From assembly GCF_988243305.1 (NCBI RefSeq), contig NZ_OZ547136.1: a stretch of DNA of 64,000 nucleotides, one strand, 5' to 3'. The position numbers were made by a program, and so were the translations under genes. Below are positions 37,639-50,862 of this stretch, piece by piece. Under the pieces are notes generated by a model. The model had not been told where the DNA came from. It was given only the letters and a program-made list of their open reading frames with translations, and did no database searches. Each line of letters opens with the position of its first letter. Position 1 is the first letter of the stretch.

Positions 37639-40441
<2,803 letters not shown>

Positions 40442-40639
40442 CACCTCCCAACGCGCCGTTATTTCCTGACGGCGCAGTAGACTTCTGCCAAATATCGACT
40501 CACGTCACATTTTTTTGATCACGATTTGGTCCCTCAAAATGTGAGACGCTTCGATCCTCTTTTTCTCCCGTTCACCTACTATACGCTTGAAGTTGTCCAT
40601 GATTGTCCATAGACAACTGTAAATGTTCAGGTGCGCGCC

Positions 40640-41386
40640 ATGAAATCATTAAGTAAGTCGTCACAAATACCGCTCTATCAACAAGTGGTGGAGTGGATAA
40701 GAGAAAGTATTTATACCGGGGATTTGGTGGAAGACGATCGCATTCCTTCGGAATACCAGATTATGGATATGCTGGAAGTGAGTCGGGGAACCGTTAAAAA
40801 AGCAGTCGCCCAACTGGTAAAAGAAGGCGTGTTGATTCAGGTCCAGGGGAAGGGAACATTTGTCAAAAAAGAGAACGTGGCATATCCGTTAGGTGAAGGA
40901 TTATTGTCATTCGCGGAATCGCTGGAAAGCCAGAAAATACACTTTACCACTGAAGTTATTACGTCACGGATTGAACCGGCTAATCGTTATGTGGCAGAGA
41001 AATTAAGAATAACGCCCGGTCAGGATATTCTTTACCTTGAGCGTTTACGTTCAATTGGTGATGAAAAAGCGATGCTGATAGAGAACCGTATCAATATTGA
41101 GCTATGCCCCGGCATCGTGGAAATCGATTTTAATCAACACAATTTATTTCCAACAATAGAAAGTTTGTCGCAAAGAAAAATTCGTTACTCGGAAAGTCGC
41201 TATGCCGCGCGATTAATTGGTAATGAACGCGGTCATTTTTTAGATATCAGTGAAGATGCACCCGTTTTGCATCTGGAGCAGTTAGTCTTTTTCTCCCGAG
41301 AGTTACCCGTTGAGTTTGGCAACGTCTGGTTAAAAGGAAATAAATATTATCTGGGTACCGTGCTGCAACGGCGGGAATTGAGTTAA
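40640..41386 (+). CDS. GntR/HutC-family transcriptional regulator (winged HTH plus UTRA-type effector domain)
   Basis: About 248 aa; N-terminus IPLYQQVVEWIRESIYTGDLVEDDRIPSEYQIMDMLEVSRGTVKKAVAQLVKEGVL is a typical GntR HTH; not in K-12 at this position. Confidence 0.8.
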   Translation: MKSLSKSSQIPLYQQVVEWIRESIYTGDLVEDDRIPSEYQIMDMLEVSRGTVKKAVAQLVKEGVLIQVQGKGTFVKKENVAYPLGEGLLSFAESLESQKIHFTTEVITSRIEPANRYVAEKLRITPGQDILYLERLRSIGDEKAMLIENRINIELCPGIVEIDFNQHNLFPTIESLSQRKIRYSESRYAARLIGNERGHFLDISEDAPVLHLEQLVFFSRELPVEFGNVWLKGNKYYLGTVLQRRELS

Positions 41387-41410
41387 ATACACTTTTTTAT
41401 GAGGAATAAA

Positions 41411-41884
41411 ATGCAAGGCATACAGTTTCAGGAAAATTATATTCAACGACTTCCGTCAGGGTTAAGCGTTGAACAGATCATCCGTCAGTTAGCGCAACCG
41501 TTGGTTGCTGCTGAGCTGGTGGTCCCTGATTTTGCCGATCACGTACTGAAACGTGAGGCGACGTACCCAACGGGGCTGCCTACCGAACCACCGTGCGTCG
41601 CCATTCCGCACACGGACCATAAATATGTCAGGCACAATGCAATTGCCGTCGGCATCCTGCCGGAACCGGTAGAGTTTGCCGATATGGGCGGCGATCCTGA
41701 CCCCGTACCTGTCAGGGTGATTTTTTTGCTCGCCTTAAGCGAAAGTAATAAACAATTAAATGCCCTGGGCTGGATTATGGAGATGATTCAGGATACGCCC
41801 TTTATGTGCGCCCTGCTTACGATGGAAACAACAGAAATACACACAGTAATCTTAAACAAAATGAAAGAACGAGGTGAAATATGA
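41411..41884 (+). CDS. PTS enzyme IIA, type-2 (fructose/mannitol/galactitol class)
   Basis: ATG at 41411 after GAGGA; contains VAIPHTDH, a candidate phospho-His site; about 157 aa. Confidence 0.75.
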   Translation: MQGIQFQENYIQRLPSGLSVEQIIRQLAQPLVAAELVVPDFADHVLKREATYPTGLPTEPPCVAIPHTDHKYVRHNAIAVGILPEPVEFADMGGDPDPVPVRVIFLLALSESNKQLNALGWIMEMIQDTPFMCALLTMETTEIHTVILNKMKERGEI

Positions 41885-42162
41885 GTCAAACCATTTTATT
41901 TGTCTGCGCCACGGGTATTGCCACATCCACGGCGGTAACAGAAAAAGTCATGGAATATTGTAAAGAGCACGGTCTTAACGTCAATTATTCCCAAACCAAC
42001 GTTGCCTCTTTACCTGGAAATACTGACGGCGTAGCACTGGTAGTCTCAACGACTAAAGTGCCTTATGAACTCGACGTCCCGGTGGTTAACGGCTTGCCGA
42101 TTATTACCGGTATTGGCGAAGAGAAAGTACTGGCGCAAATTGTTTCGATCCTTAAAAAGTAA
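41881..42162 (+). CDS. PTS enzyme IIB, galactitol family
   Basis: 93 aa; MSQTILFVCATGIATSTAV resembles GatB with the phospho-Cys in the C(A)TG motif; 4-bp overlap with IIA. Confidence 0.8.
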   Translation: MSQTILFVCATGIATSTAVTEKVMEYCKEHGLNVNYSQTNVASLPGNTDGVALVVSTTKVPYELDVPVVNGLPIITGIGEEKVLAQIVSILKK

Positions 42163-42238
42163 TTAATAATAATTAATTTCAACCCACTCCATCAGGCGCT
42201 AACGCGAGGTGCGCTCTCGCCTGAAAAAGAGGTTTATT

Positions 42239-43597
42239 ATGAACGATATCGCGCATACCCTCTATAATATTGTGCAATATATATTGGGATTTGGTCCCAC
42301 GGTAATGTTGCCGTTGGTGTTATTTATTCTTGCTCTCTTTTTTAAAGTAAAACCCGCTAAAGCCTTACGTTCGTCATTAACGGTCGGCATTGGTTTTGTC
42401 GGTATTTATGCCATTTTCGATATTCTTACCAGCAATGTCGGGCCAGCGGCCCAGGCGATGGTTGAACGCACCGGAATTAATTTACCGGTGGTGGATTTAG
42501 GCTGGCCGCCGCTTTCCGCTATTACATGGGGTTCGCCAATTGCCCCGTTTGTTATTCCCCTGACTATTCTGATTAACGTGGCGATGCTGGCGTTAAATAA
42601 AACCCGCACCGTTGACGTAGATATGTGGAACTACTGGCATTTTGCCCTTGCCGGTACGCTGGTTTATTACAGCACCGGCAGCCTGTTCTTTGGTTTGCTG
42701 GCAGCGGCGATTGCTGCGGTGGTAGTACTTAAACTCGCCGACTGGTCTGCGCCACTGGTACAAAAATACTTTGGCCTGGAAGGGATCTCTTTGCCGACGC
42801 TCTCTTCGGTGGTGTTCTTCCCGGTCGGTCTGCTGGTCGACAAAATCATCGACCATATCCCCGGCCTCAATCGTATTCATATCGATCCGGAAACCGTGCA
42901 GAAAAAGTTTGGCATCTTCGGTGAACCGATGATGGTTGGCACTATTCTGGGCATTCTGCTCGGCGTAATTGCCGGATACGATTTCAAAAAAGTCTTGCTG
43001 CTTGGCATCAGCATTGGCGGTGTGATGTTCATCCTGCCACGCATGGTTCGCATTCTGATGGAAGGTTTATTACCGCTGTCTGAAGCCATTAAAAAGTATC
43101 TCAATGCCAAATACCCTGACCGTGACGATCTCTATATCGGCCTGGATATCGCCGTTGCCGTAGGTAACCCAGCGATTATCTCCACCGCCCTGCTGCTGAC
43201 GCCAATCTCGGTCTTTATCGCGTTTGTCCTTCCGGGTAATGAAGTCCTGCCGCTTGGCGACCTTGCCAACCTGGCGGTAATGGCGTCGATGATTGCTTTA
43301 GCCAGCCGTGGCAACATTTTCCGCACCGTTCTGGCGGCGATTCCGGTGATTATTGCCGATCTGTGGATTGCGACTAAAATCGCGCCGTTTATTACCGGAA
43401 TGGCGAAAGACGTTAATTTCAAATTTGCCGAAGGCTCCAGCGGCCAGGTCTCCAGTTTCCTTGATGGCGGTAACCCATTCCGCTTCTGGCTGCTGGAAAT
43501 CTTCAACGGCAATCTCATCGCCATTGGTCTGGTGCCGGTTATCGCCCTGGTACTGTATGGTATTTTCCGAATGACGCGGAGCACGGTTTATGCCTGA
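42239..43597 (+). CDS. PTS enzyme IIC, galactitol family
   Basis: ATG at 42239 after AAGAGG; polytopic membrane protein with clear similarity to GatC (GPTVMLP..., ...VDVGWP..., ...PRMV..., ...GNEVLPLGDLA...). Confidence 0.85.
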   Translation: MNDIAHTLYNIVQYILGFGPTVMLPLVLFILALFFKVKPAKALRSSLTVGIGFVGIYAIFDILTSNVGPAAQAMVERTGINLPVVDLGWPPLSAITWGSPIAPFVIPLTILINVAMLALNKTRTVDVDMWNYWHFALAGTLVYYSTGSLFFGLLAAAIAAVVVLKLADWSAPLVQKYFGLEGISLPTLSSVVFFPVGLLVDKIIDHIPGLNRIHIDPETVQKKFGIFGEPMMVGTILGILLGVIAGYDFKKVLLLGISIGGVMFILPRMVRILMEGLLPLSEAIKKYLNAKYPDRDDLYIGLDIAVAVGNPAIISTALLLTPISVFIAFVLPGNEVLPLGDLANLAVMASMIALASRGNIFRTVLAAIPVIIADLWIATKIAPFITGMAKDVNFKFAEGSSGQVSSFLDGGNPFRFWLLEIFNGNLIAIGLVPVIALVLYGIFRMTRSTVYA

Positions 43598-45098
43598 TAA
43601 CAGCGCAGCTATCGTTATCGATATTGGCACCACCAATTGCAAAGTCACCTGCTTTTCCTGCCTGGACGCAACGACGTTGGGCGCGCATAAATTCGTGACG
43701 GCAAAACAGATCTCCCCACAGGGCAATGTCGATTTCGATATCGACGCCCTCTGGCAGGAGGTCCGCCAGGCGATAGCGCAACTGAACGCCGCTTCGCCGC
43801 TGCCAGTCAGGCGGATAAGCATTGCCAGTTTTGGCGAGTCAGGCGTGTTCCTTGACGAGCATGGCGAGATCCTGACGCCAATGCTGGCATGGTATGACCG
43901 TCGCGGTGAAGAGTATCTGGCTACACTTAGCGAGGCAGACAGTGCGGCACTTTATGACATTTGCGGGTTACCGCTGCACAGCAATTACTCTGCCTTCAAA
44001 ATGCGTTGGTTGCTGGAACATTACCCACTGCGTAATCGCCGCGGCCTGCGTTGGCTACATGCGCCGGAAGTACTGCTCTGGCGGCTGACCGGCGAACAGC
44101 GCACGGATATCACCTTAGCCAGCCGCACGCTGTGTCTTGACGTGCGCAAAGGCGAATGGTCAGCGAAAGCGGCGGCGTTGTTACACGTTCCCTGTTCAGC
44201 ATTTGCGCCATTGGTGCAGCCAGGCGAACACGCCGGATGGGTCAGCGAGTCGCTCTGCAAAATGCTTGGGTTCTCGCAACCGGTCAGCGTGACGCTGGCC
44301 GGACATGACCATATGGTGGGTGCGCGAGCGTTGCAGATGATGCCGGGCGATATCCTTAACTCGACGGGGACCACAGAAGGCATTCTGCAACTGGATACAC
44401 AACCGACGCTGGATGAACAGGCCAAACGTGACAAGCTGGCAAACGGCTGTTATTCGCTTGCAAACCAGTTCACCCTGTTTGCGTCGCTGCCCGTGGGCGG
44501 TTTCGCTCTGGAGTGGCTGCGTAACACGTTCCGGCTAACCGATGAGGAGATCGCCGCATCACTTACTCGCGGACATGCGGATTACCTGGCGGGGAACTGG
44601 TCGCTCGATGACATTCCCCTCTTTATTCCACATCTTCGCGGTTCGGGTTCGCCCTATAAAAATCGCCATACTCGTGGATTATTTTATGGGCTTGGCGATA
44701 CGTTAAATATCGACATGTTAATTGCCAGCGTCTCACTGGGATTAACCATGGAATTTGCCAACTGCTTCGCCTGTTTTAATGTGCCTGGCACCAGCGCGTT
44801 AAAAGTGATAGGTCCGGCAACCCAAAATCCCCTTTGGCTGCAATTAAAAGCGGATATTTTACAGCGTCCGGTTGAAGCAATTGCATTTAACGAGGCGGTT
44901 TCTGTCGGAGCATTATTAACTGCCGCACCGGATATTCCACCGCCGCAAGTTACCATAGCCCAACGTTTGTTACCGAATCGGGCGAGATACCATCAATTAC
45001 AGCGTTATCAGCACAAATGGAAAAGCTGGTATCAGTTGAAATTACAACAAGAAGGCGTGATGCCATTACATCATCGGGAGGAACACTATGTTGAATAA
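43590..45098 (+). CDS. FGGY-family carbohydrate kinase
   Basis: 502 aa; N-terminal VIDIGTTNCKV is an FGGY/actin-fold ATPase motif; overlaps IIC and the HPr-like gene. Confidence 0.75.
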   Translation: MPDNSAAIVIDIGTTNCKVTCFSCLDATTLGAHKFVTAKQISPQGNVDFDIDALWQEVRQAIAQLNAASPLPVRRISIASFGESGVFLDEHGEILTPMLAWYDRRGEEYLATLSEADSAALYDICGLPLHSNYSAFKMRWLLEHYPLRNRRGLRWLHAPEVLLWRLTGEQRTDITLASRTLCLDVRKGEWSAKAAALLHVPCSAFAPLVQPGEHAGWVSESLCKMLGFSQPVSVTLAGHDHMVGARALQMMPGDILNSTGTTEGILQLDTQPTLDEQAKRDKLANGCYSLANQFTLFASLPVGGFALEWLRNTFRLTDEEIAASLTRGHADYLAGNWSLDDIPLFIPHLRGSGSPYKNRHTRGLFYGLGDTLNIDMLIASVSLGLTMEFANCFACFNVPGTSALKVIGPATQNPLWLQLKADILQRPVEAIAFNEAVSVGALLTAAPDIPPPQVTIAQRLLPNRARYHQLQRYQHKWKSWYQLKLQQEGVMPLHHREEHYVE

Positions 45099-45357
45099 AA
45101 CCGTGGAGGTCAGAAACAGTACTGGCCTGCATGCACGTCCGGCGGCCTGTCTGGCGAAAGCCGCCAAAAAATATAGCTGTAAAGTGACGCTGCACTATGA
45201 GGGTAATGATATTAATGCCACCAGCATGATGAATATTATGCGCGCCGGAATAAAAGGCGGAAAAACGGTGGAAATACGCTGCGACGGTGATGATGAAAAC
45301 GAGGCCATACAGACTCTCACCGACTTATTTCGCGACCGCTTCGGTGAAGCTGAATAA
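45088..45357 (+). CDS. HPr-family phosphocarrier protein
   Basis: 89 aa; GLHARPAA contains the conserved active-site His; preceded by GGGAGGA. Confidence 0.8.
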   Translation: MLNKTVEVRNSTGLHARPAACLAKAAKKYSCKVTLHYEGNDINATSMMNIMRAGIKGGKTVEIRCDGDDENEAIQTLTDLFRDRFGEAE

Positions 45358-45388
45358 TTAACTGATATTAAAAGATGAGGTTTTCAAT

Positions 45389-46249
45389 ATGCCATTAGTT
45401 AATGGACGGATACTGCTCGACCGCATTCAGGAAAAACGGGTATTAGCGGGCGCGTTTAATACCACCAATCTGGAGACGACGATTTCAATTTTAAACGCCA
45501 TTGAGCGTTCAGGATTACCCAACTTCATTCAGATTGCGCCCACCAATGCACAACTCTCGGGATACGATTACATTTATGAAATCGTGAAACGTCACGCCGA
45601 TAAAATGGATGTTCCGGTCAGTCTTCATCTGGATCACGGGAAAACTCAGGAGGATGTTAAACAGGCGGTGCGCGCGGGCTTTACCTCGGTCATGATTGAC
45701 GGTGCCGCATTATCTTTTGAAGAGAATATCGCTTTCACCCAGGAAGCTGTCGATTTCTGTAAATCCTATGGCGTACCGGTTGAAGCGGAGCTGGGGGCGA
45801 TTCTCGGCAAAGAAGATGATCACGTCAGCGAAGCCGATTGCAAAACGGAACCGGAAAAGGTGAAGACCTTTGTCGAGCGCACCGGTTGCGACATGCTGGC
45901 AGTTTCTATTGGCAACGTTCATGGCCTGGACGATATACCGCGTATCGATATCCCCCTGCTGAAGCGCATTGCCGAAGTCTGCCCGGTGCCGCTGGTTATT
46001 CACGGCGGCTCCGGTATCGCCCCGGAAATATTACGCAGCTTTGTTAATTATCGCGTCGCTAAAGTAAATATCGCCAGCGATCTGCGCAAAGCGTTTATCA
46101 CCGCCGTCGGCAAAGCGTATGTGAATAATCACAACGAGGCGAATCTGGCACGAGTGATGGCATCAGCAAAAAACGCCGTCGAGGAAGATGTGTATAGCAA
46201 AATCCTGATGATGAATGAGGGGCATCGGTTGATTAGAAAGGCATCTTAA
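45389..46249 (+). CDS. Class II ketose-bisphosphate aldolase (tagatose/fructose-bisphosphate aldolase family)
   Basis: 286 aa; LHLDHG and VIHGGSG motifs typical of class II aldolases such as GatY/KbaY/FbaA. Confidence 0.8.
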   Translation: MPLVNGRILLDRIQEKRVLAGAFNTTNLETTISILNAIERSGLPNFIQIAPTNAQLSGYDYIYEIVKRHADKMDVPVSLHLDHGKTQEDVKQAVRAGFTSVMIDGAALSFEENIAFTQEAVDFCKSYGVPVEAELGAILGKEDDHVSEADCKTEPEKVKTFVERTGCDMLAVSIGNVHGLDDIPRIDIPLLKRIAEVCPVPLVIHGGSGIAPEILRSFVNYRVAKVNIASDLRKAFITAVGKAYVNNHNEANLARVMASAKNAVEEDVYSKILMMNEGHRLIRKAS

Positions 46250-46262
46250 GAGCCACAAAAAT

Positions 46263-46297
46263 ATAGCGGCGCAACAGAAATTGTTGGGCCGCTATAA
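46263..46297. terminator. Strong hairpin between convergent aldolase and hicB-like genes
   Basis: ATAGCGGCGCAACA-gaaa-TTGTTGGGCCGCTAT inverted repeat; A/T-rich flanks on both sides. Confidence 0.35.
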
Positions 46298-46298
46298 G

Positions 46299-46658
46299 TT
46301 ATAAATGATTCAAACGCTCATTCAGTGTTTCAATAATATAGGTATTTACAGAGACTTGTTGCTGCGCAGCCGCATTATTAAGGCGTTCACTCAGCGATTC
46401 TGGATAGCGTAATGTAAAGGTCTTAATCTTTTCTGTACGCGCATACGGCTCAATACCCGCAGCTTTACAATCCTCAAGATACTCTCGCAGGGAAAGCTCC
46501 CCTTCTTTTTGCAGCCCCTGAATGCTGTCAGAGACAAAATCACAATAACCTGACAAGCCCAGGAATTTGCCACGAAATGCATTCAGTTCTGGCACGTAAG
46601 TGATAACTGCAGGTTGCCCGGCAATCTCCATAGAGTTTGGTGTCTTCAGTTTGATCAT
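46299..46658 (-). CDS. hicB: HicB-family antitoxin (UPF0150 domain plus C-terminal ribbon-helix-helix)
   Basis: 119 aa; C-terminus TFTLRYPESLSERLNNAAAQQQVSVNTYIIETLNERL is RHH-like; 4-bp overlap with the upstream toxin gene. Confidence 0.7.
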   Translation of the reverse strand: MIKLKTPNSMEIAGQPAVITYVPELNAFRGKFLGLSGYCDFVSDSIQGLQKEGELSLREYLEDCKAAGIEPYARTEKIKTFTLRYPESLSERLNNAAAQQQVSVNTYIIETLNERLNHL

Positions 46659-46930
46659 GGTTTTACCCCTATACTTAGTAACCAGTCACGCACGCTTTCT
46701 ACAGCGCCTTTATCGGTATCTGGCGACGGATGAGGCCGATGGAAACACGCAACGCTCATATTTAGTATGAACTTACAACGCGAACCTCTTCCTTCCTTAA
46801 TTTCTCCGCCTAATGCTTTAACCAGTGACTCTATATCAGACCACTTAATCCCTTGAGGAACAGGAGATTTAAATATTTGATCCAATGTATTTTTTTGTTT
46901 CTTCCGTAAAGCCTGTACCTGGGTTCTCAT
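46655..46930 (-). CDS. hicA: HicA-family (YcfA-like) toxin
   Basis: 91 aa; LVKALGGEIKEGRGSRCKF...FHRPHP...VRDWLLSIGV fits the HicA pattern; lies upstream of the antitoxin gene as in hicAB. Confidence 0.6.
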   Translation of the reverse strand: MRTQVQALRKKQKNTLDQIFKSPVPQGIKWSDIESLVKALGGEIKEGRGSRCKFILNMSVACFHRPHPSPDTDKGAVESVRDWLLSIGVKP

Positions 46931-46940
46931 GGCATGTCCT

Positions 46941-46990
46941 TATGACTTCACTTTATGACATCAATAGTATGACATCACAATATGAAGTCA
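46941..46990 (-). promoter_or_regulatory. Candidate hicAB promoter/operator with reiterated TATGAC(A/T)TCA motifs
   Basis: TATGACTTCA, TATGACATCA, GTATGACATCA and TATGAAGTCA (the last is the reverse complement of the first) within 50 bp upstream of hicA. Confidence 0.4.
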
Positions 46991-47002
46991 AGTTTCCCTT
47001 CC

Positions 47003-48127
47003 TTACGCCATTGTCCCAATCGTCTTCCTGAATCGCAGCAGTGCGATGGTGAAAAATGCGCCGCCAATTGCCATCAGCGTCAGGAACTGCGGCCAGACGA
47101 TTTCGAATCCGGCACCACGGTAGAGAATGGCCTGCGCAAGGCTAACAAAGTGTGTCGTCGGCATGGTCAACATAATGTCCTGCACCGTCTGCGGCATACT
47201 TTCGCGCGGCGTGGATCCACCGGAAAGCATTTGCAGCGGTAGCAGCACCAGAATCACCAGCAGCCCCAGTTGCGGCATTGAACGCGCTATCGTCCCCATA
47301 AAAATGCCGATTGACGTGGTGGCAAACAGACTGAGCGCCACGCCCAGCATAAACAGCGGGATCGAGCCTTCAATCGGTACGCCCAGCACGCCTTTCACCA
47401 TCAGTACCAGCGATAATCCCGACACCATCAGCACCACCAGCCCCATCGACCAGACCTTCGCCATCATGATCTCAAACGGCGTTATCGGCATCACCAATAA
47501 GTGTTCCACCGTGCCGTGTTCACGCTCGCGGATCAGCGCCGATCCGGTCAATACAATCGCCAGCATGGTAATGTTGTTGATGATCGCCATCACCCCACCG
47601 AACCACGCGGGATCAAGGTTCGGGTTAAAGCGCATCCGGGTTTCCAGCGATACCAACGGTTCGCTGTTATCACGGTAGCGCGCGACAAAGCTGTTCACTT
47701 CACCGTTGATAATATTCTGGATATACCCATTGCCGGTAAATGCCTGGCTCATGCGCGTGGCATCGACGTTCACCTGAATATCTGGCTGGCGTCCGGCGAG
47801 GACATCACGCTGAAAATTAGGCGGAATATTTATCGCGAAGGTATAGCATCCGGCGTCCAGCCCGGCATCCATCTCATCGGCGGTGATCATCTCCGGTGGC
47901 AAAAACCACGGGCGATAGAAGCTGTTAACGATCCTGTTCGATAACTGCGATTGATCCATATCGGCAATGGCGATCGGCGCGAGGTTCAACGATCCTGGCG
48001 TAACGGTCGCTGACGAATACACCGACACCGTAAACGAGAAGACAATCAGCGTCAGCATCGCTTTATCACCGAGCAAACTGCGCAACTCTTTGATACCCAG
48101 ATTAAAAATATTGCGTAAATGGCGCAT
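47003..48127 (-). CDS. yhhJ: ABC-2-type efflux permease
   Basis: Start placed at [20 protein letters not shown] (374 aa); ATGA overlap with the rbbA stop. Confidence 0.9.
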   Translation of the reverse strand: MRHLRNIFNLGIKELRSLLGDKAMLTLIVFSFTVSVYSSATVTPGSLNLAPIAIADMDQSQLSNRIVNSFYRPWFLPPEMITADEMDAGLDAGCYTFAINIPPNFQRDVLAGRQPDIQVNVDATRMSQAFTGNGYIQNIINGEVNSFVARYRDNSEPLVSLETRMRFNPNLDPAWFGGVMAIINNITMLAIVLTGSALIREREHGTVEHLLVMPITPFEIMMAKVWSMGLVVLMVSGLSLVLMVKGVLGVPIEGSIPLFMLGVALSLFATTSIGIFMGTIARSMPQLGLLVILVLLPLQMLSGGSTPRESMPQTVQDIMLTMPTTHFVSLAQAILYRGAGFEIVWPQFLTLMAIGGAFFTIALLRFRKTIGTMA

Positions 48128-50862
48128 CATCCCTCCTGTTTTTTCAGCAGCAGGATGCTTAAGCCCATCACCAGCGGGATGGCTATCAGCAACGGGATAA
48201 AAAGTTGCCACAAATCAGTCAAATCCAGCGCCTTCGAGAACGTCCCGCGGGCAATAGTCAGAAAATGACTGGTCGGGTAAACCTCGCCGATCCAGCGTCC
48301 TGGACCTTCCAGCGAAGCTACCGGATCAATCATCCCGGAAAACTGTGTCGCCGGGATCAACGTGATAATCGCCGTACCGAAAATAGCGGCAATCTGGCTT
48401 TTCATAAAGGTGGAGATCAGCAGCCCCATTCCGGTGGCGATGATGATATACAGCAGCGCCGCCAGGGTGAGCGTCAGGAAACTGCCTTTATGCGGTACGC
48501 CAAACACAAACACCGACAGGCCGCAGAGCAGGAAAAAGTTCAGCATCCCCAGCGCGATGTATGGCAACTGTTTACCAAGCAAAAATTCGCTACGGGTGGT
48601 GGGGGTCACGTAAAGGTTGATAATCGACCCTAGCTCTTTTTCCCGCACCACGCTAAGGGCGCTTAGCATTGACGGGATCATCATCAGCAGAAGCGGGATC
48701 ACCGCCGGAACAATCGCTGGCAGGCTTTTTACGTCCGGGTTATAGCGATAGCGCGTCTCAATGTTCATCAGCCCGCTTTGGCTGGAGGGTGTGGATTGTC
48801 GGCTCGCCACATCCTGTAGCCAGCTCTGGTGCATAGCCTGCACGTAACCTTTTACCGTTTCGGCACGACTGGGCATCGCACCGTCGATCCAGACACCGAG
48901 TTCCACGGGCGTACCACGCGCGATATCGCGCCCGAAATTGGGCGGGATCTCAATCGCCACCGTGATATCGCCCGCACGCATCCGACGATCAAGCTCGTCA
49001 TAACTGGTGAGCGGCGGCTGTTCGATAAAGTAACGGGAACCGGAGAGATTGAGCGTCCACGCCTGGCTACTGACGGTCTGGTCGCGGTCGAGCACCGCAA
49101 AGCGCAGGTTTTCCACATCCATACTGATGCCGTAACCCATTATCAGCATCAGGATCACCGTTCCCATCAGCGCCAGCGTCGAACGTACCGGATCGCGTCG
49201 CAGCTCCAGTGCTTCGCGGCGGCTGTAGCTAAACAGACGGCGCAGGCTAAATCCCTGACGCGGCGCGTGGGTGGTGTCGTGTATCACGGGCGGCGCTTCG
49301 GCTTCGTTGCTCTGCCCTGCCGCTTCCTGCAAATAGGCGATAAATGCCTCTTCCAGACTGGCGGCTCCGCGTTTTTCAACCAGCTCCTGCGGTGTACCGC
49401 TGGCAAGCACTTTTCCGGCGTGCATCAGGGAGATGCGGTCGCAACGTTCCGCTTCGTTCATAAAGTGGGTGGAGATGAAGATAGTCACTTTGTCCTGACG
49501 CGAGAGATCGACCATCAACTGCCAGAACATATCCCTCGCCACCGGATCAACACCAGAAGTAGGCTCATCGAGGATTAACATCTCCGGGCGATGAATCACC
49601 GCCACCGCCAGCGAAAGCCGCTGGCGAATGCCGAGCGGTAATGACTCCGGCAGAACATCTTCAACGTCGTTGAGCTTAAAACGCTCGCTCATTTCAGCCA
49701 CTCGCGCGGGAATTTCCGCTTCCGGGATGTGAAACAAACGGGCATGTAACTCCAGGTTTTGCCGCACGGTGAGCTCGTTATAGAGCGAAAACGCCTGCGA
49801 CATATAGCCTACCCGACGGCGAGTATCGATATCTTTTGGATCAACCGGTTGCCCGAACAACCACGCCTCACCTTCGCTGGCGGGCAACAATCCGGTAAGC
49901 ATTTTCATGGTGGTGGATTTACCGCAGCCGTTCGAACCAAGAAAACCAAAAATCTCCCCGCGTGGAATGCGGAAATTGACGTGATCAACGGCAACGAAGG
50001 AACCAAAACGCATGGTCAGATCGCGCGCTTCGATGGCAATCTCTGCGTTTTCCGGTTGATATGGTGGGATCACTACCGCCTGATGCGCCTGGCGTTGCGC
50101 TTGCGGTAACAGATTTATAAACGCCTCTTCCAGCGTCGCACTTTGCGTTTGCTGCCGCAGCTCTTCGGCGCTGCCGGTTGCCAGCACTTCTCCGGCATTC
50201 ATCGCTACCAGCCAGTCGAAGCGTTCGGCCTCTTCCATATAGGCGGTGGCGACCAGCACGCTCATATTGCTCTGCCGCTGGCGAATACTGTCGATCAGAT
50301 CCCAGAACTGGGCACGGGAGAGCGGGTCAACCCCCGTTGTTGGCTCATCAAGAATCAACAGTTCCGGGTCGTGGATTAACGCACAGCACAGCCCAAGTTT
50401 TTGCTTCATCCCGCCGGAGAGCTTCCCCGCAGGACGATCGCGAAACGGTGCTAACCCGGTGCTGGTCAGCAGCTCATTGATTCGGACTTCCCGCTCCGCT
50501 TTGTCGTGACCGAACAAGCGGGCGAAAAAATCGACGTTTTCATACACCGATAAGGTGTGGTAGAGGTTTTTGCCCAGCCCTTGCGGCATCCAGGCGATGC
50601 GCGGGCAGACGTCGCGGCGATGCTTCGGGTCGCGCATATCGCCGCCCAGCACTATCACATTGCCCTGCTCAATGACACGGGCACCGGAAATCAACGACAA
50701 CAAACTCGACTTACCGACGCCGTCCGGGCCAATCAGCCCGACCATGCAGCGTGCCGGAATATCGAGAGTGATATTGTTCAGCGCAACGGTTTTTCCATAA
50801 TGCTGGCTCACGCCCGCCAGTTGCGCGACAGGCGGGACGGGAACCAGTTCCAGATGCGTCAT
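48127..50862 (-). CDS. rbbA: Ribosome-associated ATPase: fused tandem ABC ATPase domains plus a permease domain
   Basis: 911 aa; two Walker A motifs ([18 protein letters not shown]) and C-terminal TM segments. Confidence 0.93.

What the first reader, a model, noticed from the sequence alone, without database searches (positions are those of the whole stretch)
46299..46990. HicA/HicB-like toxin-antitoxin pair at the island boundary, with a variant toxin motif and reiterated operator
The 91-aa toxin-like protein fits the HicA/YcfA pattern but carries GSRCKF where canonical HicA has a GSH-type motif that I recall as catalytic, so it may be a divergent or attenuated toxin. The antitoxin has a HicB-like N-terminal domain and an RHH C-terminus. 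Upstream are four copies of a TATGAC(A/T)TCA motif in both orientations, a likely autoregulatory operator. The pair sits exactly at the junction between the sugar island and core yhhJ, a typical location for stabilising addiction modules.
Basis: partly seen in the sequence, partly recalled or inferred. Interest (0 to 1): 0.4.

Follow-up and report, generated by a model that had tools for sequence, protein, structure and literature searches.

The report
HicAB toxin-antitoxin pair, histidine-less toxin
This is a real, already annotated two-gene HicA/HicB toxin-antitoxin cassette beside yhhJ in E. coli; its toxin belongs to a large, untested branch of the family that carries arginine where studied HicA toxins need a histidine, and it is not tied to the neighbouring sugar island.

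Summary

GSR is real: R51 sits in the column of the catalytic His. It is not a local decay. G-S-R and F-H-R-P-H-P are near-invariant across a clade of about 1,000 clusters at 50% identity. The clade is under purifying selection and is common cargo of the variable region of P2-like prophages. "Divergent" is supported; "attenuated" is not.

The TGAnnTCA boxes are conserved upstream of more than 20 relatives in unrelated contexts, which supports an operator.

The island-addiction idea fails. hicAB and the sugar island occur independently in E. coli, and Citrobacter has yhhJ-hicAB-nikR with no island. About 38% of E. coli copies carry a stop at hicA codon 2 while HicB stays identical.

No toxicity, RNase or DNA-binding data were found for this clade. 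Interest is modest.

The parts
46655..46930 (-). hicA, 91-aa toxin-family protein: an N-terminal two-helix extension (residues 2-19) followed by a dsRBD-like alpha-beta-beta-beta-alpha core (residues 30-86)
46778..46786 (-). Codons for G49-S50-R51, the beta1-beta2 turn and start of beta2. Arg occupies the position of the catalytic His of studied HicAs
   Evidence: Invariant G49, S50, R51 in 39 diverse homologues. GSR in most of the 120 closest homologues and the 150 best cluster representatives. hhalign places R51 in the GSH His column. Strand E51-56 in the model.
46727..46744 (-). Codons for F63-H64-R65-P66-H67-P68, at the end of beta3 and the start of the beta3-alpha2 loop. H64 is specific to this clade. 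H67 matches His40 of B. pseudomallei HicA
   Evidence: F63, P66, H67 and P68 invariant; H64 and R65 at 90% or more. FHRPHP in 90 of the 119 best representatives that the motif search parsed, out of 147. Column correspondence from hhalign. Residue 40 is 'close in space to His24' (PMC3969222).
46299..46658 (-). [quoted passage not shown]
46986..46991 (-). -35-like hexamer TTGACT of the hicAB promoter; it overlaps box 1
   Evidence: Promoter scan, 9 of 12 matches, 16-nt spacer. TTGACTTCA is conserved at this position in every orthologous locus examined.
46964..46969 (-). -10-like hexamer TACTAT
   Evidence: Promoter scan. It is removed by the 14-bp deletion of the S51-type allele.
46981..46990 (-). 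Operator box 1 (minus strand TGACTTCATA), over the -35
46968..46977 (-). Operator box 2 (TGATGTCATA), inside the promoter spacer. Present in the Escherichia and Citrobacter chromosomal version only; missing in the S51-type allele
46954..46963 (-). Operator box 3 (TGATGTCATA), immediately after the -10, over the expected transcription start
46941..46950 (-). Operator box 4 (TGAAGTCATA), in the 5' leader just before the Shine-Dalgarno AAGGA (46941-46937)
46257..46296 (-). Intrinsic terminator after hicB: a 14-bp interrupted stem followed by UUUUU. The junction with the sugar island lies inside or next to it, because homology with island-free alleles ends about 14 nt after the hicB stop
   Evidence: RNA fold -20.2 kcal/mol, z -4.5. 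Comparison of sequences downstream of hicB.
47003..47005 (-). yhhJ stop codon, the left edge of the cassette. Homology with K-12, which lacks hicAB, ends exactly here

Best explanation
[quoted passage not shown] It lies between the stop codon of yhhJ and the variable nikR-yhhJ region.

Shown here:
- HicA has the HicA dsRBD-like fold plus a 28-residue N-terminal helical extension.
- HicB has a HicB-type N-domain and an RHH domain.
- The genes overlap by ATGA.
- Four TGAnnTCA boxes cover the -35, the spacer, the start-site region and the leader of a sigma-70-like promoter. This box architecture is conserved upstream of relatives in unrelated contexts.
- The toxin belongs to a large clade in which the catalytic His at the start of beta2 is replaced by a near-invariant Arg (G49-S50-R51), and in which F-H-R-P-H-P at the end of beta3 is near-invariant.

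Inferred:
- HicA is still a growth-arresting, RNA-targeting toxin.
- H64 is the predicted cross-strand neighbour of R51 in the beta2-beta3 hairpin. H64 and/or H67 supply the imidazole, while R51 binds or polarises the scissile phosphate.
- HicB neutralises HicA through its N-domain.
- RHH dimers of HicB oligomers occupy the box pairs and repress the operon.
- Biologically the cassette is an accessory, selfish or defence-type module related to cargo of P2-like prophages. It is not the maintenance device of the sugar island.
For: Family and fold:
- Pfam scores above the cut-offs for both proteins; RefSeq annotates them as HicA and HicB.
- A Klebsiella variicola orthologue pair is listed as class 4 with a -4 overlap in Gerdes' Table S1.

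Active site:
- hhalign against solved HicAs gives 90% probability and puts R51 in the His column, P66-H67-P68 on P39-H40-P41, and H64 on Thr37.
- G49, S50, R51, F63, P66, H67, P68, D73 and G75 are invariant in 39 homologues down to 49% identity.
- 987 clusters at 50% identity match at E<=1e-10. Most of the top 150 have GSR, and FHRPHP is the commonest form of the second motif.

Evidence that the gene is functional rather than decayed:
- E. coli versus Citrobacter hicA has 42 synonymous-only against 13 amino-acid-changing codons, with dS saturated.
- It is always followed by hicB.
- 32 viral contigs carry relatives. In those inspected, the pair sits between gpA and the portal/terminase genes of P2-like genomes, once beside a retron RT-Toprim.
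- A 2052-aa haemagglutinin-repeat protein ends in a GSR-type HicA domain.

Operator:
- 4 of the 5 window matches cluster in 50 bp.
- Boxes at fixed positions relative to the promoter in Citrobacter, Serratia, Leminorella and 20 distinct phage-borne upstream regions whose flanks differ.
Against: - No experiment on any member of this clade was found, so toxicity, RNase activity, neutralisation and DNA binding are all inferred.
- The one residue shown to be essential in every HicA tested is absent (PMC3969222, PMC12297915).
- The proposed H64/H67 substitution rests on the secondary-structure register of an AF2 model. I could not read coordinates to measure distances.
- His40 of gonococcal HicA, the equivalent of H67, is dispensable there.
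- The toxin is dispensable in E. coli. 793 of 2073 loci carry TAA at codon 2 together with a 14-bp operator deletion, and a frameshift allele hits the GSR codons.
- Neither protein matches PADLOC or NCBIfam models.
Confidence: 0.75

Rival explanations
1. Attenuated or inactive toxin. Loss of the catalytic His has turned HicA into a harmless partner, for example a co-repressor of HicB, and the pair is a decaying relic.
For: The catalytic His is absent and that His is essential in all tested HicAs. Toxin-null alleles are common in E. coli.
Against: - Arg is a near-invariant clade character, not a lesion.
- hicA is under strong purifying selection.
- The clade is retained as paired cargo in phage variable regions.
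- A polymorphic-toxin-like giant protein carries this domain type at its C-terminus.
- Where E. coli inactivates the gene, it does so by a stop codon or a frameshift.
Confidence: 0.12
2. Addiction module that stabilises the adjacent sugar (PTS/kinase/aldolase) island.
For: In the window the pair lies exactly between the island and yhhJ. The island junction is about 14 nt after the hicB stop.
Against: - Citrobacter has rbbA-yhhJ-hicA-hicB-nikR with no island.
- E. coli S51 and the frameshift-allele strains have the same island-free arrangement.
- ST131 EC958 has the island directly next to yhhJ with no hicAB.
- hicAB is in 2073 genomes, the aldolase in 1637 and either in 2857. So only about 853 have both, and 581 share this junction.
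- All copies are chromosomal.
Confidence: 0.05
3. Defence or anti-addiction role. The cassette is the chromosomal counterpart of cargo carried in the variable region of P2-like prophages. It either aborts phage infection, or is kept mainly for HicB, which would neutralise the 76-79% identical HicA brought in by such phages. This concerns the biological role and is compatible with the best explanation.
For: - 32 viral contigs carry relatives. In those inspected the pair sits between gpA and portal/terminase, once beside a retron RT-Toprim I-C.
- A Serratia copy lies in a prophage.
- The HicB protein is identical in the intact, codon-2-stop and frameshift alleles, with 4-6 synonymous and 0 replacement changes, while the toxin is lost.
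- Gerdes argues for a defence role for HicA loci in general.
Against: - No PADLOC model matches.
- No phage-challenge data exist.
- The hicB comparison rests on very few substitutions.
- The P2/P4 hotspot papers held in the library do not mention HicA in their main text.
Confidence: 0.3
4. A toxin with a different chemistry. The GSR clade keeps the HicA fold and HicB control but does not cleave RNA. It might block translation by binding RNA, or it might need the ribosome or another cofactor.
For: The only residue assigned to catalysis in HicAs is absent. The clade has a conserved N-terminal extension (L16, F20, P23, W30 invariant) that canonical HicAs lack.
Against: Two conserved histidines (H64, H67) remain next to the old site, and the other conserved loop residues are kept: Gly in the turn, P-x-P, Asp and Gly.
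Confidence: 0.15

Closest known systems
Yersinia pestis HicA3-HicB3 (PDB 4P78), the structural model for Gerdes class 4 hicAB
   Different: HicA3 has the G-S-H motif (sequence), whereas this toxin has G-S-R. HicA3 lacks the 28-residue N-terminal extension. Sequence similarity is too low for phmmer to detect.
Burkholderia pseudomallei HicA/HicAB (PDB 4C26, 6G26) and Neisseria gonorrhoeae HicA
   Different: In these toxins His24 is the most conserved residue, and H24A abolishes toxicity. Here that position is Arg, and an extra conserved His (H64) sits where they have Thr37.
E. coli K-12 HicA-HicB (yncN/ydcQ; PDB 6HPB)
   Different: It is a different locus. The motif is GSNH, with His. According to the literature its HicB carries an HTH, which makes it class 3 rather than the RHH class 4. 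K-12 lacks the yhhJ-linked cassette entirely.
Klebsiella variicola PIA10432.1/PIA10431.1 and other 84-92-aa 'GSR' HicAs in Table S1 of Gerdes 2024 (mBio 15:e03293-23)
   Same: A direct orthologue: 91-aa HicA with GRGSRCKF...FHRPHPSPDTDKG, 119-aa RHH HicB and a -4 overlap. It is listed as class 4. Many GSRVRF-type toxins are listed in classes 3 and 4.
   Different: They are only catalogued. The paper's main text does not mention histidine or catalytic residues, and no member has been tested. The paper notes that class 4 splits into two clusters. Whether these correspond to the GSH and GSR types is my inference.

Membership tests
HicA toxin family (Pfam PF07927 / YcfA-like dsRBD fold) | Sequence match to the family profile above the curated threshold | tested here: met
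   37.7 bits against a gathering score of 27, residues 30-80. hhalign against five solved HicAs: probability 90%, E 1.5e-6.
HicA toxin family (Pfam PF07927 / YcfA-like dsRBD fold) | alpha-beta-beta-beta-alpha dsRBD-like fold | tested here: met
HicA toxin family (functionally studied His-dependent RNases) | Catalytic His at the start of beta2 (G-S-H), essential in the B. pseudomallei and N. gonorrhoeae toxins and reported essential in other tested HicAs | tested here: not met
   The position is R51, near-invariant in the clade. Essentiality of the His: PMC3969222 and PMC12297915.
HicA toxin family (functionally studied His-dependent RNases) | Conserved Gly in the beta1-beta2 turn and the P-x-P/Asp/Gly residues of the beta3-alpha2 loop | tested here: met
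   G49, P66, P68, D73 and G75 are invariant; D71 is present in 90% or more. Correspondence to Bp G22, P39, P41, D44 and G48.
HicA toxin family (functionally studied His-dependent RNases) | Growth arrest on expression and RNA cleavage in vitro | not testable with these tools
   No experimental report for this clade was found.
HicB antitoxin family | N-terminal partial RNase-H-like (HicB) fold | tested here: met
HicB antitoxin family | C-terminal DNA-binding domain (RHH in class 4) | tested here: met
HicB antitoxin family | Binds and neutralises the cognate HicA | not testable with these tools
   The only support is indirect: the genes are always adjacent and overlapping.
Type II TA operon with antitoxin autoregulation | Repeated or palindromic operator overlapping the promoter | tested here: inconclusive
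   The sequence evidence is strong. Four boxes lie over the -35, spacer, start site and leader. They are conserved across unrelated contexts. Binding was not tested.
Gerdes class 4 hicAB | Bicistronic, hicA upstream of hicB, HicB with a C-terminal RHH | tested here: met
   An orthologue is listed as class 4.
Island-linked addiction module | Co-inheritance with the element it is supposed to stabilise | tested here: not met
   hicAB occurs without the island. The island occurs without hicAB. Counts are 2073, 1637, 2857 and 581.

The most novel reading that the evidence does not exclude
The 'GSR' HicAs are a mechanistically distinct branch of the HicA fold. Either the active site has been re-wired, with the imidazole moved from the start of beta2 to the cross-strand position H64 (or to H67) and Arg taking the old place, or the toxin no longer acts as a simple ribosome-independent RNase. 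On this reading the branch is a frequent cargo of the variable region of P2-like prophages and acts in phage conflict, and the chromosomal E. coli HicB is kept in toxin-null lineages as immunity against incoming phage-borne toxins.
Probability: 0.3. Interest if true: 0.55.

Novelty: new variant of a known kind. Interest (0 to 1): 0.35.

Why it matters
HicA is treated as a His-dependent mRNA interferase on the strength of a handful of small G-S-H toxins. This locus represents a large clade: about 1,000 clusters at 50% identity, including 38% of complete E. coli genomes and many P2-like prophages. The clade keeps the fold, the partner and the operator logic, but carries Arg at the catalytic position and has two other conserved histidines nearby.

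If it is toxic, it shows how the active site of a minimal RNase fold can be rebuilt. It would also mean that annotation pipelines are lumping two chemistries under one name. If it is not toxic, a very common 'toxin' annotation is wrong.

The natural series of E. coli alleles (intact, codon-2 stop with operator deletion, frameshift in the GSR codons), all with an identical HicB, is a ready-made system for asking why antitoxins outlive their toxins. None of this is surprising enough to rank highly, and the locus itself is ordinary and already annotated.

Tried and rejected
- phmmer of HicA against PDB sequences found nothing. A family profile found only a marginal HicA hit, 9svk_A at E=1. Fold comparison was therefore needed.
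- NCBIfam had no model for either protein, and PADLOC had none.
- Literature searches for the RefSeq accessions, for hicAB with yhhJ or O157, and for HicA with conserved or catalytic histidine or arginine found no study of this locus or clade.
  - The O157:H7 faeces paper measures 'hicA/hicB' without saying which locus.
  - S. meliloti HicA keeps the His, so it is not a tested GSR member.
- Megablast with the frameshift allele returned nothing, probably because its G-run is masked. I repeated it in blastn mode and read the identity bands.
- Nei-Gojobori dS was saturated and the tool returned -1. I report raw codon counts instead.
- I looked for a HicB-like immunity gene after the giant haemagglutinin-repeat protein that ends in a GSR-HicA domain. 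There is none in the 228-bp gap, and the next genes are a YafQ/ParE-type pair. That protein is therefore only weak support for toxicity.
- I considered that the boxes might be chance, or sites for a host regulator such as a CRP-like TGTGA half-site. I rejected this because the boxes travel with hicA into unrelated genomic contexts.

Full report
**What is there.** The window is an E. coli chromosome segment; the best matches are 99.4-100% identical to complete E. coli genomes.

On the minus strand the yhiI-rbbA-yhhJ genes end with the yhhJ stop at 47005-47003. Seventy-two bases later an ATG at 46930 opens a 91-codon ORF (46930-46655). Its TGA overlaps the ATG of a 119-codon ORF (46658-46299).

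After the second ORF comes a strong hairpin followed by UUUUU: -20.2 kcal/mol, z -4.5, at 46296-46257. Next, on the other strand, is the end of a class II aldolase gene. This is the last gene of a GntR/PTS/FGGY-kinase/HPr/aldolase block.

RefSeq annotates the two small genes as 'type II toxin-antitoxin system HicA family toxin' and 'HicB family antitoxin'.

**The two proteins.**

*Toxin-family protein:*
- It matches Pfam HicA_toxin at 37.7 bits (cut-off 27) over residues 30-80.
- No solved structure is detectable by sequence.
- An AlphaFold2 model built on 39 homologues has pLDDT 90.9. It shows two N-terminal helices (residues 2-19) followed by alpha(30-39)-beta(43-46)-beta(51-56)-beta(59-64)-alpha(74-86).

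*Antitoxin-family protein:*
- It matches Pfam HicB (PF05534) at 56.8 bits, with sub-threshold Arc and CopG hits at the C-terminus.
- Its model (pLDDT 86.9) has a beta-beta-beta-beta-alpha N-domain and two C-terminal helices after a conserved FTLRY strand segment.

The pair fits Gerdes' class 4, defined as hicAB with an RHH HicB. A Klebsiella variicola orthologue pair (91 aa and 119 aa, overlap -4) is listed there.

**The GSR motif.**
- Profile-profile alignment of the family with five solved HicAs (probability 90%) puts G49-S50-R51 on the G-S-H column. It puts P66-H67-P68 on P39-H40-P41 of the B. pseudomallei protein, and H64 on its Thr37.
- In the model R51 is the first residue of beta2. That is where the literature places the catalytic His. 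His24 is the most conserved HicA residue. H24A and G22C abolish toxicity in B. pseudomallei, and H24A and G22C do so in N. gonorrhoeae (PMC3969222; PMC12297915).
- The substitution is therefore real and sits at the key position.

It is not peculiar to this copy:
- G49, S50, R51, F63, P66, H67, P68, D73 and G75 are invariant, and H64 and R65 near-invariant, in 39 homologues down to 49% identity.
- GSR occurs in most of the 120 nearest clusters and in most of the 150 best cluster representatives. One has GSH.
- The profile finds 987 clusters at 50% identity at E<=1e-10.
- Many such 'GSRVRF' toxins appear in Gerdes' Table S1 in classes 3 and 4. However, that paper's main text never mentions histidine.
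- I found no experimental work on any member.

**Is the toxin attenuated?** The evidence points the other way.
- Between E. coli and Citrobacter, hicA has 42 codons with synonymous-only changes against 13 replacements. Synonymous sites are saturated against more distant relatives.
- The gene is always followed by an overlapping hicB.
- Relatives 66-79% identical are carried by many of 32 viral contigs. In those inspected they sit between the replication gene gpA and the portal/terminase genes of P2-like genomes, among variable cargo. In one case the neighbour is a retron RT-Toprim defence gene.
- PHROGs files the family as a moron 'toxin'.
- A 2052-aa haemagglutinin-repeat protein ends in this domain type. 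HicA domains as polymorphic-toxin tips have a precedent (PMC9424270). This is weak support only, because I found no HicB-like immunity gene downstream.

*My mechanistic proposal (inference).* The clade is still an RNA-targeting toxin. With a two-residue turn at 57-58, R51 and H64 are cross-strand partners in the beta2-beta3 hairpin, so their side chains should lie side by side. H67 corresponds to the residue that Butt et al. describe as 'close in space to His24'. The imidazole may thus have moved to beta3, with Arg left to bind the phosphate. I could not check distances. The equivalent of H67 is dispensable in the gonococcal toxin. The alternative of a different chemistry stays open.

**The operator.** Read on the coding strand, the 72-bp gap is:

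GGAAGGGAAAC-TTGACTTCATA-TTG-TGATGTCATA-CTAT-TGATGTCATA-AAG-TGAAGTCATA-AGGACATGCC-ATG.

- The four boxes share TGAnnTCATA in one orientation at 13/14/13-bp spacing.
- Box 1 contains the -35 (TTGACT). Box 2 fills the spacer. The -10 (TACTAT) follows. Box 3 covers the expected start site. Box 4 abuts the Shine-Dalgarno sequence.
- Four of the five TATGANNTCA matches in 64 kb fall here, against 1.56 expected.
- The 8-mer core alone is not rare in the window: 13 matches against 9 expected. The evidence therefore lies in the clustering and in the comparative data.

*Comparative data.*
- TGACTTCA/TGAAGTCA boxes occur at fixed positions upstream of hicA in syntenic Citrobacter, in a Serratia prophage, in Leminorella and in 20 distinct phage-borne upstream regions whose flanks are otherwise unrelated.
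- The phage-borne layout is box, 5 nt, box (-35), 19 nt containing the -10, box, 5 nt, box.
- The Escherichia/Citrobacter chromosomal version lacks the outermost box, which is cut off at the yhhJ stop. It has an extra box in the spacer.

An 8-bp two-fold-symmetric core in pairs 13 bp apart is what an RHH dimer-of-dimers would be expected to read. That, and toxin-dependent derepression as described for other HicAB systems, are inferences. No terminator separates yhhJ from hicA, so read-through from the yhiI-rbbA-yhhJ operon is also possible.

**Relation to the island.**
- Homology with K-12 ends exactly at the yhhJ stop. K-12 has rhsB-yhhH-yhhI there and no trace of hicAB.
- Homology with island-free alleles ends about 14 nt after the hicB stop.
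- hicAB is therefore its own two-gene accessory cassette.
- Citrobacter has rbbA-yhhJ-hicA-hicB-nikR with no island. So do E. coli S51 and the strains with the frameshift allele.
- ST131 EC958 has the island directly next to yhhJ with no hicAB.
- Among 5426 complete E. coli genomes, hicAB is in 2073 (always chromosomal), the aldolase gene in 1637 and either one in 2857. By inclusion-exclusion about 853 have both. Only 581 have the junction seen in the window.
- All four combinations of island and cassette exist.

**Allelic states in E. coli.** There are three.
- *Window type.* This is intact and is present in about 1277 genomes, including O157:H7 and O145.
- *S51 type.* It has ATG-TAA at codon 2 and a 14-bp deletion that removes box 2 and the -10. 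It is present in 793 genomes. RefSeq annotates a 76-aa remnant from codon 16.
- *Frameshift type.* It has a 1-nt deletion inside the G-S-R codons. It is rare in complete genomes (6) but frequent in draft assemblies.

HicB is identical in protein sequence in all three, with 4-6 synonymous and 0 replacement differences. The toxin is thus dispensable and repeatedly lost while the antitoxin persists. That fits a selfish or defence-type cassette and hints at an anti-addiction role for HicB, but the numbers are small.

**Verdict.** This is a genuine, intact and already annotated class-4 hicAB cassette with a well-supported operator. Its toxin belongs to a large, catalogued but uncharacterised branch that fails one defining feature of the studied HicA RNases, the catalytic His. 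The locus is ordinary. The clade-level active-site change is a modestly interesting and directly testable question. The island-addiction idea is not supported.

Noticed in passing
L012:6588-6690 (E. coli S51), aligned to window 46931-47002: A common E. coli allele (793 complete genomes) has a 14-bp deletion that removes operator box 2 and the -10 hexamer. It also has AGA to TAA at hicA codon 2. The rest of the ORF and hicB are untouched. RefSeq annotates a 76-aa 'HicA family toxin' starting at codon 16, apparently at a CTG.
   Followed up: partly
L009:3001-3168 (E. coli draft genomes), aligned to window 46778-46786: A second null allele has a 1-nt deletion exactly within the Gly-Ser-Arg codons (GGTTCGCGT becomes GG-GGGCGC). 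This gives a 55-aa product named 'HicA-like protein', seen in 858 blocks of the assembly collection but in only 6 complete genomes.
   Followed up: partly
window about 38,000-46,249, and L001:9137-16050: The nikR-yhhJ interval is a variable hotspot. Depending on the strain it holds a DUF3829 gene plus a GntR/PTS-IIA-IIB-IIC/FGGY-kinase/HPr/class II aldolase block, or only hicAB, or the island without hicAB (EC958), or the rhsB-yhhH-yhhI element (K-12). The substrate of the sugar block was not examined.
   Followed up: partly
L046:3001-9159 (metagenome contig, protein P0223): A 2052-aa protein with filamentous-haemagglutinin repeats ends in a GSR-type HicA domain (...EGNGSRMSVTL...FHRPHSKDTDKG...). 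No HicB-like gene follows it; a YafQ/ParE-type pair lies downstream.
   Followed up: partly
protein P0189 (337 aa): A GSR-type HicA domain is fused to a roughly 250-residue N-terminal region with no Pfam match. This may be another fused architecture.
   Followed up: no
L017:4948-6726: In one P2-like viral contig the gene immediately after hicAB is a retron-type reverse transcriptase (PADLOC RT-Toprim I-C, E 5e-205). The two modules therefore share the same variable region.
   Followed up: partly
proteins P0053, P0059, P0061, P0079: Several database entries for this HicA clade in Pectobacterium, Leminorella and E. coli are named 'hexulose-6-phosphate synthase'. For an 84-102-aa HicA-fold protein this looks like a propagated misannotation.
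   Followed up: no
window 47003-48211: The mechanical ORF for yhhJ starts at a GTG and gives 402 aa, whereas RefSeq annotates 374 aa. There is no terminator-like structure between yhhJ and hicA, so the cassette may also be read through from the yhiI-rbbA-yhhJ operon.
   Followed up: no
protein P0203: One member of the long-HicA clade has G-S-H together with I-H-R-P-Y-P. That is His at both the old and the proposed new position, with the PHP histidine lost. It may be an evolutionary intermediate.
   Followed up: no
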